Positions 3,077-48,923 are shown, numbered from the stretch's first letter. The stretch is 64,000 nt of DNA from Flaccisagitta enflata (GCA_965153355.1 OZ231126.1:40176001-40240000), one strand, 5' to 3'. Notes: generated from the letters alone by a model not told the origin. Translations and numbers: made by a program.

Positions 3077-3695
3077 ATGATTCCCCATAAGCGTGAATCG
3101 TGATTGTCGTTAAATTTTATGATGACAAACCCTCATGTTCAGCAATGAGCCCATTAGCTATTATAAAAGGCGGCTCTCTTGAAACTGGCAATTCACGAAC
3201 TCTCATGTGATAAACCATTTCCCCAATAAGAGCAGCGGCCTCAAAGTGATAATCTATACTGATGAACCTCACCAAGATAAGTAACCTCTACTTAATACAG
3301 AACTGCAAATAATCAGGGTACCCAAATAATCTCAGGACCTATTATAGGCTATTTCCCACGGACTGTAGAAAAACTAATTTTGAGTGAACAAATCCGAATG
3401 CTGAAAATACCGGAAGGACGATAAAAAAAATTGAAAAAGCAACTTTTCTTGGAGGTCTTCCGAAAAAAGTTACTTTCTCTCATCAAACACCCAGTTTAGC
3501 TCATTACTTAGATTGTCTCATTGACCCTGGAAACAAAATCGCATTATTGTCTAATCCAGGCCTTTTATACCAAATAAACCAAAAATTGCAGCGTTCAGGT
3601 ACTGATAGCCCCACATTGACTTTGGCTATACAGACATAGTTCTCCCTCTCAGTTCTCTCTTCCTCTCAGTTTTGAAATCACAACTCATATAACTC

Positions 3696-3796
<101 letters not shown>

Positions 3797-3847
3797 GCAC
3801 GATATCGCTCTCACGTGTGATGTTAGCCTATTCAGTTGGGATCTCAC

Positions 3848-26649
<22,802 letters not shown>

Positions 26650-45921: not shown

Positions 45922-46307
45922 AAAGACTGCATTCGCGTGTTTCACTTTTGAAAAGGGCATTTCCGTTAAAGAAAACAAGGCCAACGCGTTACAAGTCGCG
46001 TGCGGTCTTGAATACTAAAAGACTAAAAGACCTAAAGACCAAAAGACAAAACAACTAAAAGCAGGAGCAGTAATGCAAAAAACGCCCAAAAACGCCAAAA
46101 AAAGCTAACGCGGACCGACCGACCAACCGACAGACTGACAGACCGACCGACATAGCGGTTCATAGAGTCGAGTAGCACGCGACTAAAAAGAATGCTTTTT
46201 CTTCTGCTCCAAAGGCTCTTGTCCTTATTTTGGATATTGTTGAGTACTAATGTTGTCCAACTTTCATATGATGTATATATTTTTCTCAAAAGGCGAGAGG
46301 TACCAAA

Positions 46308-46685
46308 ATGACAAGTTTGAGTAATATTTTCGAGGAGTATTTGATGGAAGCATCTCCTCACGGTCTCAAAAAGATCTTCCTTTCGTCCCCAACATCGTCA
46401 CGCGTTACGTCAATCGTAATTCGCGTTTTCTGGCTGGTCTCCTGGATCGTGGCTTTCTATCTCCTTTCATTGAAGATCTCGAACATTGTCAACGAGTATC
46501 GTCAACATCCTACGGTCACAAAGTTGACCATCGAACAACGGGAGACTGTGGCTTTCCCGGCTGTAACAGTCTGCGCCGTGAATCCCTTCAAAAAGTCCAA
46601 AGTATTGGAATGGCTGAAAAATTGCGATCAAATCAAAAATGAAAACGGAAAACTGAAAAAGATTTGCGCCAATTATGCGAAATGC
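46308..46685 (+). CDS. DEG/ENaC coding exon 1 (N-terminus, TM1, FPAVTVC); 3' boundary uncertain
   Basis: AAAATG start; the frame is open to TAA at 46758-46760. Phase-0 GT candidates are weak (TGC|gtggag at 46686, AAA|gtattg at 46602). Confidence 0.8.
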
Positions 46686-47653
46686 GTGGAGCAGGAAACG
46701 GATAGATGGAATATTGGAATTCAAAAGACAGGGATATGCAGAGGAGGAACAAAGCCTTAAAAAAGTTTCACCGGCCCGGATACACGGCAACCTTGGTCTA
46801 GAACGGGTGGGCACGAGGGCCTGCTTCGAAAGCCTCAAAAAACTTTATGACCGATGGAATGACCAACCGAACAGTAACGTATCGAGTCACGTGTCCGCGA
46901 CTAAACATAAAAGCAGTTAGTTTAGCTTATTGAGTGACTAATTCATTTTAAACAGGCGGTGTTTGAGATTGAACTTTAGCAAATTTACTTTGTCAAATGA
47001 CTAAGGCTGGCTTGTCTGAATGACAATTGAAAATCAGACATGAAGAGTGAGACAAGACATCGGCATATTAGCTTGTGGGTGTGCTTAGGACTTCTCTGCA
47101 TATTTCTGGTCAAAAACGCGAATCACAGTCTATCAAACAAAACCCAAGTGCAAAAACGTTTGGTTTCTGCGTCTCAAGAAAGATTTGTCTGATGGAGGAT
47201 ATTTTGATCTACAGCGGAATTTGGGGGAAGATGCTTTGGACATTTTTGCACATAAAACCCGCAAAAATAATACGGATATCAGCTTTTTCAGGTTTTATTC
47301 GCTGAACCCTATTAACAATTTAGTCATTAACTTATCCAAATGATAAAGATTCAAACATTGATACTTCTACTAAATTTGTTCTTCCTCACTTTTGGATTAA
47401 TGCTCTCATGAAATACGCCTTAAAATTTCTCAACCTTCATTAGGTTTAACAGGAAATGGTATCAAGATCTGTCATATTGGAAATTCAATTTTCTTGTGGA
47501 GAGACAGCCGAAATTTCTTCAGAGTGGAGGAAATTGTTTCACCTTCAACAACGACGGGCAGTTGGAACAAGATGAAAGAAGCAATTTGGGGGGACTAATC
47601 TTCTACTTGGCGAGGACGAGAAATGAGACGGAAAACAACAACAAAAACAACAA

Positions 47654-47736
<83 letters not shown>

Positions 47737-48923
47737 GCAACAACAACAACTTCGATAAAAAAGGAATAGAAAGGGCACTCAAACCCATCGCAGACAATAA
47801 GAAAAACTGTTTTCAAGGAACGGACCCCGATCTCTGCGGCTGCTTCATTCTCTTCGTTCATCCACCATTGACTGTCCCGACTTTGATGCAGACCAAGACG
47901 ATGATCGTTTGTAATGACCAAGTCATTCCATACGAGTATCAACTAAGGCTCAATCTGAAAGGTGAGATCACGCCACAACGAGTGGAAGGGCATATTTGAG
48001 GTCTGGAGGGCATATATGAAGCGTGGAGAGCTGATTGGAGGCCTGGAGGGCTGACTCGGGGCTAAATTTTGGCTGGGAGGCTTATTTTAGCGCCTGAAAG
48101 TGCTGTTTTTAAGCCTTGATGACCATCAGGGGGCGGGGCGGATGGACGGAAGGTCGGCAGATGGATGGACAGATGGATGGACAGACGGATGGACAATTGG
48201 ACAGACATAGCGGGGTGTAGAGTCGGGTAGCATGCAACTAAAAATCACAATTTAGCATTCGCTGTTCCGTGATTTTCCCATCATGAAGCTCCTTTTGGCA
48301 AATGCGTGGATGAGTTTCCGGAGTGTCTTCGCGTGAACATGCCACGAATTCAAGCTTACAATTACACCATGGATTCGTGCATTGCAGCCTCGAAGGATAC
48401 ATTGGACATGCCTTTAAAGTGGGCGAAACGGCAACCGCAAAACATCTCTTCGAGCGAGGACAACGACTATGGAGAAGATGAAGACAACAGCAACAATGAC
48501 AGCGACGAAGACAACGACAACGACAGCGGCAACGAAAACGACAACGACAACTTCATCGACAGCGACAACGACAAAGAGGAGAAAAAACGCCGTCGCACAA
48601 AAATTGACTACCATAAGCTGTGTCCTCCAGCATGCGTCCAGCAAGTCTTCAAACCCACGACAGCTTCGGGCAACGACATGGAAAATGGACGGAAAGATTC
48701 CTTTTCCTTGCAAATTTTCAACGTTGATTTCGAGACGACGATCGTGCAGCAGCTTCCGGCCACTGGACCGGAGGAAGTGTTGGGCACTGTTGGCGGACTG
48801 TTGGGACTCCTGATCGGCGCCTCAGTTTTGTCCGTTTTAGAAATGGTTGAAATGATGGTGCGACTGATTTTCGCGCTGGCTGGCAAGTTGAAAGCGAAAG
48901 CTGCCAAGATAGCACCTAGATAG
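46308..48923 (+). CDS. DEG/ENaC (amiloride-sensitive Na channel/ASIC/pickpocket family) subunit; model 46308-46685?, 47089-47291, 47444-47961, 48289-48923, about 577 aa
   Basis: Pre-TM1 HG (SPHG), TM1, FPAVTVC, GNCFTFN, GLIFYL, FVHPP, PFGKC, CPPAC, and TM2 GTVGGLLGLLIGASVLSVLE with the GAS filter. The exon lengths sum to 1734 nt (578 codons). Confidence 0.9.
47089..47291 (+). CDS. DEG/ENaC coding exon 2 (DFSAYFWSK...LDIFAHKTRKNNTDISFFR); this reading frame is not in the ORF track
   Basis: Stop-free frame after gcttag|; donor TTCAG|gtttta is phase 2 and matches the next acceptor. Confidence 0.7.
47444..47961 (+). CDS. DEG/ENaC coding exon 3 (FNRKWY...GNCFTFN...poly-Asn...FVHPP...LNLK)
   Basis: Acceptor ccttcattag|G, strong donor AAAG|gtgaga. 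Confidence 0.85.
48289..48923 (+). CDS. DEG/ENaC last coding exon (APFGKC...CPPAC...TM2...stop)
   Basis: Phase-1 acceptor ttttcccatcatgaag|CT (AAG type, weak); TM2 with GAS; TAG stop. Confidence 0.88.

What the first reader, a model, noticed from the sequence alone, without database searches (positions are those of the whole stretch)
48289..48640. DEG/ENaC channel whose cysteine-rich thumb is replaced by an acidic Asp/Asn tract
Seen: between PFGKC and CPPAC there are only five Cys in total. About 42 residues of EDNDYGEDEDNSNNDSDEDNDND... (48456-48581) plus KKRRR occupy the space. Known: the ASIC/ENaC thumb is a nested ladder of about five disulfides that takes part in gating. Inference: the Cys that remain (GKC with the last Cys of CPPAC; YTMDSC with the first) match the two outermost bonds, and the inner pairs are lost together. 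The CxFxGxxC pair is also gone, while FPAVTVC/GNCFTFN, HG and GAS are kept. Pairwise loss suggests a selected redesign, for example a cation- or salinity-sensing, constitutively open or modulatory subunit, rather than decay.
Basis: partly seen in the sequence, partly recalled or inferred. Interest (0 to 1): 0.72.

Follow-up and report, generated by a model that had tools for sequence, protein, structure and literature searches.

The report
Sodium-channel gene with repeat-derived acidic loop
This is an animal DEG/ENaC-type sodium-channel gene from a little-known branch that has a stripped-down "thumb", and its odd acidic stretch looks like a DNA microsatellite that expanded inside a floppy surface loop, not a purpose-built sensor.

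Summary
The last exon (48289-48923, +) of a four-exon DEG/ENaC gene (46308-48923) has 5 Cys between PFGKC and CPPAC. It also has a 42-residue Asp/Asn/Glu tract (48456-48581) followed by KKRRR. HG, FPAVTVC, GNCFTFN and GAS are present and the CxFxGxxC pair is absent.

The Cys-poor thumb is not special to this gene. The nine related sequences that cover this region (all unnamed) have the same pattern (GxC ... YxxxxC ... CxxxC, 4-6 Cys, 56-68 residues). The six of them that cover the CxFxGxxC position also lack that pair. They group with this gene in a tree (SH-aLRT 89).

The acidic tract is an extra insert of about 50 residues relative to all of them. It is a decayed (GAC-AAC)n microsatellite: 39 of 42 codons lie within one change of GAC or AAC. 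It is predicted to be disordered. A purer (AAC)n tract sits in the previous exon, and 24% of the window is tandem repeat.

A near-identical sequence from another source keeps the tract in frame, with two in-frame length changes. Canonical splice models give an intact reading frame. No expression data could be obtained. A sensing or cleavage-regulated role is not excluded but has no support.

The parts
46308..46685 (+). Exon 1 in the best-scoring model: ATG, HG motif (46353-46373), TM1 (46416-46472), FPAVTVC (46554-46574) and the start of the finger. The 3' end is uncertain. Its donor TGC|GTGGAG is weak. Alternative models run on to 46915 after a 46-61 nt mini-intron or a 1-nt frame change.
   Evidence: Pfam ASC E 1.8e-18. 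Aligns to TM1 and beta1 of ENaC alpha, FaNaC and ASIC2. Model tests.
47179..47291 (+). Putative exon 2 (finger). Acceptor ...ctgcgtctcaag|AAA, donor CAG|GTTTTA, in phase with exons 1 and 3.
   Evidence: Phase-consistent canonical sites and an intact frame. Only weak similarity to the finger of P0047 (tblastn 17.7 bits). Inferred.
47444..47961 (+). Exon 3: the Cys-less counterpart of CxFxGxxC (47475-47507), GNCFTFN (47529-47549), the poly-Asn/Asp tract (47631-47750), NCF...LCGC (47805-47843) and VHPPLTVP (47856-47879).
   Evidence: tblastn to six relatives, alignment A1, coordinates.
47631..47750 (+). Second coding microsatellite. It encodes 40 residues, mostly Asn (AAC 32, GAC 5 of 40 codons). 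It is an insert relative to all relatives and sits in a loop that has low confidence in the P0047 model.
   Evidence: TRF: 47634-47750, period 6, 19.5 copies, 94% matches. Codon counts. Alignment. P0047 pLDDT is 56-66 at residues 251-270.
48289..48923 (+). Exon 4: reduced thumb, beta10-beta12, TM2 (48804-48878) with GAS (48816-48824), stop TAG 48921-48923.
   Evidence: Pfam ASC E 2.1e-14. PDB best hit is FaNaC 7yvb, E 9.7e-07, over beta12-TM2. The AF2 model shows the TM2 helix.
48291..48635 (+). Thumb span PFGKC to CPPAC: 115 residues and 5 Cys (GKC 48303-05, PEC 48324-26, DSC 48378-80, LC 48621-23, AC 48633-35). Short helices are predicted at exon residues 12-23 and 28-37.
   Evidence: AF2 pLDDT is 83-91 for exon residues 10-40.
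48456..48581 (+). Acidic Asp/Asn/Glu tract of 42 residues. It is a decayed (GAC-AAC)n repeat, an insert relative to the relatives, and predicted disordered.
   Evidence: TRF: 48493-48574, period 6, 13.7 copies, 73% matches. GAC 13 / GAT 1 and AAC 10 / AAT 1; 39 of 42 codons lie within one change of GAC or AAC. pLDDT is below 52 with no secondary structure. Kept with in-frame indels in P0151.
48582..48596 (+). KKRRR polybasic cluster just after the tract. It is also present in P0151 and absent from the other relatives.
   Evidence: Any role as a cleavage site is inference only.

Best explanation
The locus is a four-exon gene for a divergent DEG/ENaC channel subunit, probably from an arthropod. 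It belongs to an unnamed branch of the family whose thumb is reduced to short helices held by only the two outer disulfides. Those are GxC with the last Cys of CxxxC, and YxxxxC with the first. The branch also lacks the CxFxGxxC pair.

In this lineage a (GAC-AAC)n trinucleotide repeat expanded in frame inside the variable loop between the alpha4-like helix and CxxxC. That is about where canonical channels have helix alpha5. The result is a disordered polyanionic loop of about 50 residues. A younger (AAC)n expansion did the same in a loop of exon 3.

The tracts are most likely tolerated by-products of a very repeat-rich genome, not a designed sensor. The protein would still be expected to form a trimeric Na+-conducting channel, since it keeps HG, the GAS filter, and a small residue at what I take from recall to be the degenerin position.

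Shown: family membership, the clade-wide Cys pattern, the insert status, the repeat origin and the predicted disorder. Inferred: disulfide pairing, channel function and the neutrality of the tract.
For: Family membership. Pfam ASC hits. A profile built from 59 family members scores the spliced models at 197-208 bits.

Clade trait. Between the GxC and CxxxC motifs, P0002/P0152/P0153, P0003/P0154, P0007, P0047 and P0126 have 4 Cys in 56-68 residues and P0037 has 6. P0008 has 6 and P0155 has 4, read from their sequences. More distant hits have 6-10 Cys in 80-106 residues. None of the 6 relatives that cover the CxFxGxxC position has those Cys. The 10 reduced-thumb rows group together (SH-aLRT 89).

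Conservation. 21 of 22 residues invariant in the 7 relatives are kept here.

Insert. The tract is gapped in all 7 relatives.

Repeat origin. TRF arrays. In the tract, Asp codons are GAC 13 / GAT 1, against 7/10 in the rest of the coding sequence (Fisher p 0.007). Asn codons are AAC 10 / AAT 1, against 11/14 (p 0.011). 39 of 42 codons lie within one change of GAC or AAC. 23.9% of the window lies in tandem-repeat arrays, including a 441-base (AAC)n array at 17362-17802.

Disorder. pLDDT is below 52 and no secondary structure is predicted for exon residues 45-100, while the flanks score 83-98.

Fold of a relative. The P0047 model has pLDDT 80.3 and matches ASIC2a (Foldseek E 2.9e-20). Its thumb consists of helices 319-335 and 340-354, after which the chain goes straight to C360.

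Reality of the tract. P0151, which comes from another contig in ENA, carries it in frame with indels of 4 and 1 residues.
Against: There is no expression evidence.

Neutrality of the tract is an inference. Slippage of 3- or 6-base units keeps the frame by itself, so the in-frame indels in P0151 speak neither for nor against selection. The tract is old enough to have decayed to 73% repeat identity and still stands in two sequences, which would also fit retention by selection.

The tree support for the clade (89) is below the tool's star threshold, and the Cys columns were not removed from the alignment used for the tree.

The 5' gene model is uncertain, with a weak donor at 46685/46686.

Disulfide pairing was not checked on coordinates.

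The span has an odd number of Cys (5), which leaves PEC without an obvious partner.
Confidence: 0.62

Rival explanations
1. The acidic tract, together with KKRRR, is a functional module. It could be a polyanionic divalent-cation or salinity-sensing loop at the place of helix alpha5, which contributes to the acidic pocket in ASIC1. Or it could be an inhibitory tract freed by a proprotein-convertase cut at KKRRR, by analogy with the protease-released tracts of ENaC.
For: The tract and KKRRR are both kept in P0151. The tract has decayed from a pure repeat (73% matches) yet stays open and 50% acidic (21 of 42 D/E). It lies where alpha5 would be: the P0047 model goes from the alpha4-like helix straight to C360. 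In cASIC1a the acidic pocket is formed by alpha5 of the thumb and the finger loop (PMC12714832, passage). ENaC subunits have protease-sensitive gating domains (PMC6197857, abstract and passages).
Against: No relative has the tract or the polybasic site, so it is not a trait of the clade. Codon monotony points to slippage. A compositionally similar poly-Asn tract with no acidic bias sits in another loop of the same gene. The genome is 24% tandem repeat. The only comparison available is with one near-identical sequence, so conservation carries little weight.
Confidence: 0.15
2. The gene is decaying or non-functional: a young pseudogene or a relaxed duplicate in which repeats expand freely.
For: The stem to window plus P0151 is long (1.3 changes per column, against a median end branch of 0.93). 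A clade-invariant Glu is replaced by Gln. The Trp of GLWLGAS, found in 6 of 7 relatives (Tyr in the seventh), is Leu here and Met in P0151. Further differences between the two lie in TM2. Exon 1 has no good donor. A +1 frame open from 46657 to 46917, with weak likeness to a relative's finger, would need a frameshift or a 46-61 nt intron. P0001 is an 81-residue product starting at a Met after the tract on a 1011-base contig, so the frame upstream may be closed in that copy. There are two large low-complexity inserts. No expression evidence was found.
Against: All six canonical GT-AG models that include exon 2 give uninterrupted frames of 544-625 residues. 21 of 22 invariant residues are kept, including all four thumb Cys and the GAS filter. 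P0151 keeps the frame open across 193 residues and is 94% identical over 159 tree-alignment columns, or 180 identical, 11 different and 5 indel positions in the pairwise alignment.
Confidence: 0.2

Closest known systems
Acid-sensing ion channels (ASIC1/2, and ASIC5/BASIC as the best solved match)
   Same: Same fold and family. The clade profile matches ASIC5 (9mky) at E 7.7e-23. The P0047 model matches ASIC2a and ASIC1 at Foldseek E about 1e-19 to 1e-20. HG, FPAVTxC, GxCxTFN, the wrist turn followed by GxC, CxxxC before beta10 and the GAS filter are all present.
   Different: Only 3 of the 7 family-conserved disulfides have both Cys. There is no CxFxGxxC pair, no inner thumb ladder and no alpha5-length segment. 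Two repeat-derived low-complexity loops are present.
Insect pickpocket (PPK28-like) channels
   Same: They are the only named proteins among the hits of the clade profile (E 5.8e-12 to 6e-6). The nearest ESM Atlas clusters are arthropod ASC proteins of 443-502 residues.
   Different: PPKs keep 10 conserved thumb Cys (PMC3583452, passages; seen directly in P0159, P0163 and P0166). They form a separate group of 19 rows with support 100 in the tree.
FMRFamide-gated Na+ channel (FaNaC, 7yvb)
   Same: Best single-sequence PDB match of the last exon (E 9.7e-07), over beta12-TM2.
   Different: The match is limited to the pore-proximal part. The thumb does not align (domain score -3.5).
ENaC alpha/gamma with protease-released inhibitory tracts
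   Same: An accessible extracellular loop next to a polybasic site. This is an analogy only.
   Different: In ENaC the tracts lie in the finger/GRIP domain and the thumb keeps its ladder (PMC6197857, passages). No cleavage is shown here.
Centipede PDPNaC1 (9jf7)
   Same: An arthropod DEG/ENaC in which a whole ectodomain element is missing. This shows such reductions are compatible with function (PMC12714832, passage).
   Different: It lacks the knuckle, not the thumb ladder. It is a weaker match (E 4e-15).

Membership tests
DEG/ENaC (Pfam ASC, PF00858) | Profile match above the curated cut-off | tested here: met
   Exon 1 frame 67.3 bits and last-exon frame 53.9 bits, against a cut-off of 23.6.
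DEG/ENaC (Pfam ASC, PF00858) | Two transmembrane helices around a large ectodomain, with an N-terminal HG motif | tested here: met
   TM1 at 46416-46472 aligns to TM1 of ENaC alpha, FaNaC and ASIC2, and SPHGLKK aligns to the HG of FaNaC and ASIC2. A TM2 helix is predicted at exon-4 residues 161-208.
DEG/ENaC (Pfam ASC, PF00858) | GxS selectivity-filter motif in TM2 | tested here: met
   GAS at 48816-48824. G424, A425 and S426 are invariant in the relatives and kept here.
DEG/ENaC (Pfam ASC, PF00858) | Seven ectodomain disulfides conserved across the family (PMC6197857) | tested here: not met
   Both Cys are present only for FPAVTVC/GNCFTFN and the two outer thumb pairs. The CxFxGxxC pair and three inner thumb pairs are absent. 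Pairing itself was not tested.
DEG/ENaC (Pfam ASC, PF00858) | Trimeric, amiloride-sensitive cation channel activity | not testable with these tools
   Needs expression and electrophysiology.
Insect pickpocket (PPK) radiation | Ten conserved thumb Cys forming five bonds (PMC3583452) | tested here: not met
   There are 5 Cys in the span. PPK28-like hits have the full set.
Insect pickpocket (PPK) radiation | Groups with PPK sequences in a tree | tested here: not met
   The insect PPK-like rows (the named ones plus one unnamed) form their own group of 19 (100*). The window groups elsewhere.
Unnamed reduced-thumb branch (P0047, P0037, P0154, P0007, P0126, P0152, P0008, P0155) | Thumb with GxC ... 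YxxxxC ... CxxxC only (4-6 Cys) and no CxFxGxxC pair | tested here: met
   The window has the four shared Cys plus one extra (PEC).
Unnamed reduced-thumb branch (P0047, P0037, P0154, P0007, P0126, P0152, P0008, P0155) | Shares the branch's invariant residues and groups with it | tested here: met
   21 of 22 invariant residues are kept. A group of 10 rows has SH-aLRT 89, which is below the star threshold.

The most novel reading that the evidence does not exclude
A so far undescribed, probably arthropod, branch of DEG/ENaC channels works with a minimal thumb: two disulfides, no alpha5, and 3 of the 7 family-wide bonds. In this lineage the vacant alpha5 position has been filled by a repeat-born polyanionic tether, followed by a polybasic convertase-type site. 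Together they act as a cleavable or Ca2+-binding regulatory module. This would be a new gating appendage created from a microsatellite.
Probability: 0.1. Interest if true: 0.7.

Novelty: new variant of a known kind. Interest (0 to 1): 0.36.

Why it matters
The thumb ladder is treated as a hallmark of the family. Seven disulfides are described as conserved family-wide (PMC6197857), and ten thumb Cys as conserved in all Drosophila PPKs (PMC3583452). A whole branch that keeps only the two outer bonds shows which part of the thumb is dispensable. It also points to the wrist-coupling bond, the C291-C366 equivalent, as the indispensable core. That gives a natural minimal scaffold for gating studies.

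The acidic tract is mainly a caution. In genomes very rich in simple repeats, striking charged tracts in receptor loops can arise by slippage and should not be read as design without comparative or functional data.

Tried and rejected
1. RNA evidence. The look-up of sequencing runs listed no RNA holder. Expression and splicing therefore remain untested.

2. No whole genome is held for the window, so no paralogue census was possible. Within the window, tblastn found no second copy.

3. Word-indexed protein searches with the last exon and with exon 1 (longer proteins only) found nothing.

4. Two metagenome-contig scans, one with the last exon and one with the clade profile, found no relative. 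No DNA of an orthologue was obtained and dN/dS could not be computed.

5. Earlier findings of this scan: three look-ups, nothing.

6. Splicing the tract out. Only one GT lies upstream of it in 48380-48625 (AAA|GTGGGC at 48419), and the possible acceptors sit in purine-rich sequence. This was rejected as unsupported by sequence.

7. A direct exon 1 to exon 3 join is out of frame, with 15 stops.

8. Literature. Three searches and passages of the papers opened found no description of a reduced-thumb branch. Supplements and alignment figures were not seen, so an unremarked example may exist.

9. Trimer prediction was not run. Three copies of even the ectodomain sit at the size limit, and the result would not bear on the tract.

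Full report
**What is in the sequence**

The window is animal DNA and is very rich in simple repeats. TRF arrays cover 15,284 of 64,000 bases, or 23.9%.

Between 46308 and 48923 on the + strand lies one DEG/ENaC gene. The Pfam ASC profile matches the frame 46272-46760 (E 1.8e-18, profile positions 2-102). It also matches the frame 48273-48920 (E 2.1e-14, profile positions 347-454). No second copy is in the window.

The last two exons are well defined. Exon 3 ends at 47961 with donor AAG|GTGAGA. Exon 4 starts at 48289 with acceptor catgaag|CT. The two are in phase and read ...LRLNLK-A-PFGKC.

- The span PFGKC to CPPAC has 115 residues and 5 Cys.
- The 42-residue tract is EDNDYGEDED...NDKEE at 48456-48581.
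- KKRRR lies at 48582-48596.
- HG, FPAVTVC, GNCFTFN and GAS are present.
- YWKFNFLVERQ stands where CxFxGxxC would be.

**Gene model**

The 5' half is less certain.
- Exon 1 opens at ATG 46308, and its frame runs into a stop at 46758.
- The only GT before that stop that gives a usable model is TGC|GTGGAG at 46685/46686.
- Joined to a short finger exon (47179-47291, or from 47149) and to exon 3 (47444-47961), it gives an uninterrupted frame of 547 residues (557 with the 47149 start) using only GT-AG introns.
- Alternatives keep the +1 frame that is open from 46657 to 46917. They use a 46-61 nt mini-intron and an exon starting at 47129, and are also uninterrupted (620-625 residues).
- The short model scores best against a profile of 59 family members: 208.5 bits against 197-200.
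- The likeness of the +1 frame to a relative's finger is weak (17.3 bits, E 0.3 in a 900-base target).

So no disabling lesion has to be assumed, but a frameshift in exon 1 cannot be excluded without cDNA.

**The relatives**

A full HMMER scan of 1.84 billion representatives with the last exon gave 158 hits at E <= 1e-3.

The best is P0001, an 81-residue fragment 98% identical. Its cluster also holds P0151, 193 residues on a 757-base contig. Next come unnamed proteins held by ENA, on contigs of 0.5-2.3 kb. They include full-length P0047 (488 aa), P0037 (444 aa) and P0154 (464 aa).

Between the GxC that follows the wrist turn and the CxxxC before beta10, the counts are:

| Proteins | Cys | Residues in span |
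|---|---|---|
| P0002/P0152/P0153, P0003/P0154, P0007, P0047, P0126 | 4 | 56-68 |
| P0037 | 6 | 68 |
| Remaining, more distant hits with recognisable motifs | 6-10 | 80-106 |

That script mis-parsed P0008. Read by eye, P0008 has 6 Cys and P0155 has 4.

The six relatives that cover the CxFxGxxC position (P0047, P0037, P0154, P0007, P0008, P0156) all lack both Cys.

C313, C343, C360 and C364 (P0047 numbering) are invariant in 7 of 7 relatives and are kept in the window. In all, the window keeps 21 of the 22 invariant residues. The exception is E301, which is Gln here.

In a maximum-likelihood tree of 60 rows, the ten reduced-thumb rows group together with SH-aLRT 89, which is below the tool's star threshold. 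In this tree:
- Window and P0151 are sisters (99*) on a long stem of 1.3.
- The 19 insect PPK-like rows form a separate group (100*).
- P0156 was left out because it is an N-terminal fragment.
- The Cys columns were not removed from the alignment.

The only named proteins reached by the clade profile are insect pickpocket 28-like and similar proteins, at E 5.8e-12 or weaker. They carry the full ten-Cys thumb. The nearest ESM Atlas clusters are arthropod ASC proteins of 443-502 residues.

**What the tract is**

Relative to all seven aligned relatives, the acidic tract is an insert. So is the poly-Asn tract of exon 3. Without it, the window's thumb span would be about 65 residues, which is the length seen in the clade.

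TRF calls 48493-48574 a period-6 array (ACAACG, 13.7 copies, 73% matches). It calls 47634-47750 a purer one (AACAAC, 19.5 copies, 94%).

Codon usage in the acidic tract points the same way:

| Residue | Acidic tract | Rest of coding sequence | Fisher p |
|---|---|---|---|
| Asp | GAC 13 / GAT 1 | GAC 7 / GAT 10 | 0.007 |
| Asn | AAC 10 / AAT 1 | AAC 11 / AAT 14 | 0.011 |

Further, 39 of 42 codons are within one change of GAC or AAC. A 441-base (AAC)n array lies elsewhere in the window. This is the footprint of replication slippage followed by point decay.

The AF2 model of the last exon (33-row alignment) is confident for the first thumb helices, with pLDDT 83-91 at exon residues 10-40. It is also confident for TM2 (93-98). 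For residues 45-100 it gives pLDDT below 52 and no secondary structure.

The model of the tract-free relative P0047 has pLDDT 80.3 and pTM 0.78. It has the family fold (Foldseek E 2.9e-20 to ASIC2a 6l6p). Its thumb is made of helices 319-335 and 340-354, and the chain then goes straight to C360. No segment of alpha5 length is present, and the window's insert lies at that place.

**Is the tract real, and is it kept?**

P0151 carries the same tract. It has two in-frame length differences (4 residues and 1 residue) and 3 substitutions in 38 aligned tract positions. The flanks are 37/41 and 108/112 identical. One of the four pre-tract differences is the called start codon.

So the tract is not an assembly artefact of this window. 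Because the repeat unit is 3 or 6 bases, in-frame indels are expected from slippage alone and do not show selection.

P0001 is unexplained. It is an 81-residue product that starts at a Met downstream of the tract on a 1011-base contig, so the frame upstream may be closed in that copy.

**Comparison with what is known**

- Seven ectodomain disulfides are described as conserved throughout the family (PMC6197857, passages).
- Ten thumb Cys are described as conserved in all Drosophila PPKs (PMC3583452, passages).
- The C291-C366 bond of chicken ASIC1 ties the wrist turn to beta10, and C291A or C366A abolish opening (PMC2701601, passages).
- The numbering of the other thumb bonds (C309-C362 and the inner pairs) is recalled and was not seen in a call.
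- Loss of a whole ectodomain element is documented in an arthropod channel: PDPNaC1 lacks the knuckle (PMC12714832, passage).
- ENaCs were found in the transcriptomes of four decapods, without ppk23 or ppk28 homologues (PMC7067487, passage).
- Three literature searches found no description of a reduced-thumb branch. Supplements and alignment figures were not seen.
- A tandem-repeat share of 23.9% resembles the more than 23% SSR content reported for penaeid shrimp (PMC7878876, abstract and passages). This is a lead to the organism, not an identification.

**Verdict**

The pairwise Cys loss is real but is an old trait of a whole, apparently undescribed, branch of the family. The acidic tract is a later repeat-born, disordered insert in the loop at the alpha5 position, paralleled by a second repeat insert in exon 3.

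| Reading | Probability |
|---|---|
| Tolerated microsatellite expansion in a divergent but probably intact channel gene | about 0.6 |
| Decaying gene | about 0.2 |
| Functional polyanionic or cleavable module | about 0.15 |

The reduced-thumb branch itself is the more interesting result. The tract is mostly a caution about repeat-rich genomes.

Noticed in passing
window 47631-47750: A second coding microsatellite in the same gene (exon 3). It encodes 40 residues, almost all Asn (AAC 32 of 40 codons), at 94% repeat purity. It is an insert relative to all relatives and sits in a loop after GGLIFYLARTR.
   Followed up: yes
window 46657-46917: A +1 frame of 87 codons is open across the end of exon 1. 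It has weak likeness to the finger of P0154 (RIDGI shared; 17.3 bits), and its donor GCA|GTTAGT is in phase with an acceptor at 47128. It is either part of the gene via a 46-61 nt intron or a frameshift, or it is chance.
   Followed up: partly
P0001 (cluster of P0151): An 81-residue product, 98% identical to the window, begins at a Met downstream of the tract although its contig is 1011 bases long. The frame across the tract may be closed in that copy.
   Followed up: no
window 48324-48326 (PEC) and 46683-46685 (AKC): The thumb span has an odd fifth Cys (PEC). P0008 and P0037 have an extra Cys pair nearby, but the second member is missing here. The best gene model has 14 Cys in all, so PEC might pair with the extra finger Cys (AKC). 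This is pure speculation.
   Followed up: no
window 3626-3991 (-) and 17203-17628 (-): Two exons of a carboxylesterase-family gene on the minus strand (Pfam COesterase E 3.2e-14 and 5e-05, consecutive profile positions 102-133 and 127-169). They are separated by about 13 kb. A 441-base (AAC/GTT)n array at 17362-17802 abuts the upstream exon.
   Followed up: partly
window 21500-23950 (+): A long array of open frames repeats a unit of about 28 residues (CMSHxPxFSDVCHTxQxSPMYVTxP...). It is a minisatellite with no credible Pfam match.
   Followed up: no
whole window: 23.9% of the bases lie in tandem-repeat arrays. (AG)n is the commonest, with 18 arrays covering 1360 bases. This level is reported for penaeid shrimp genomes.
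   Followed up: partly
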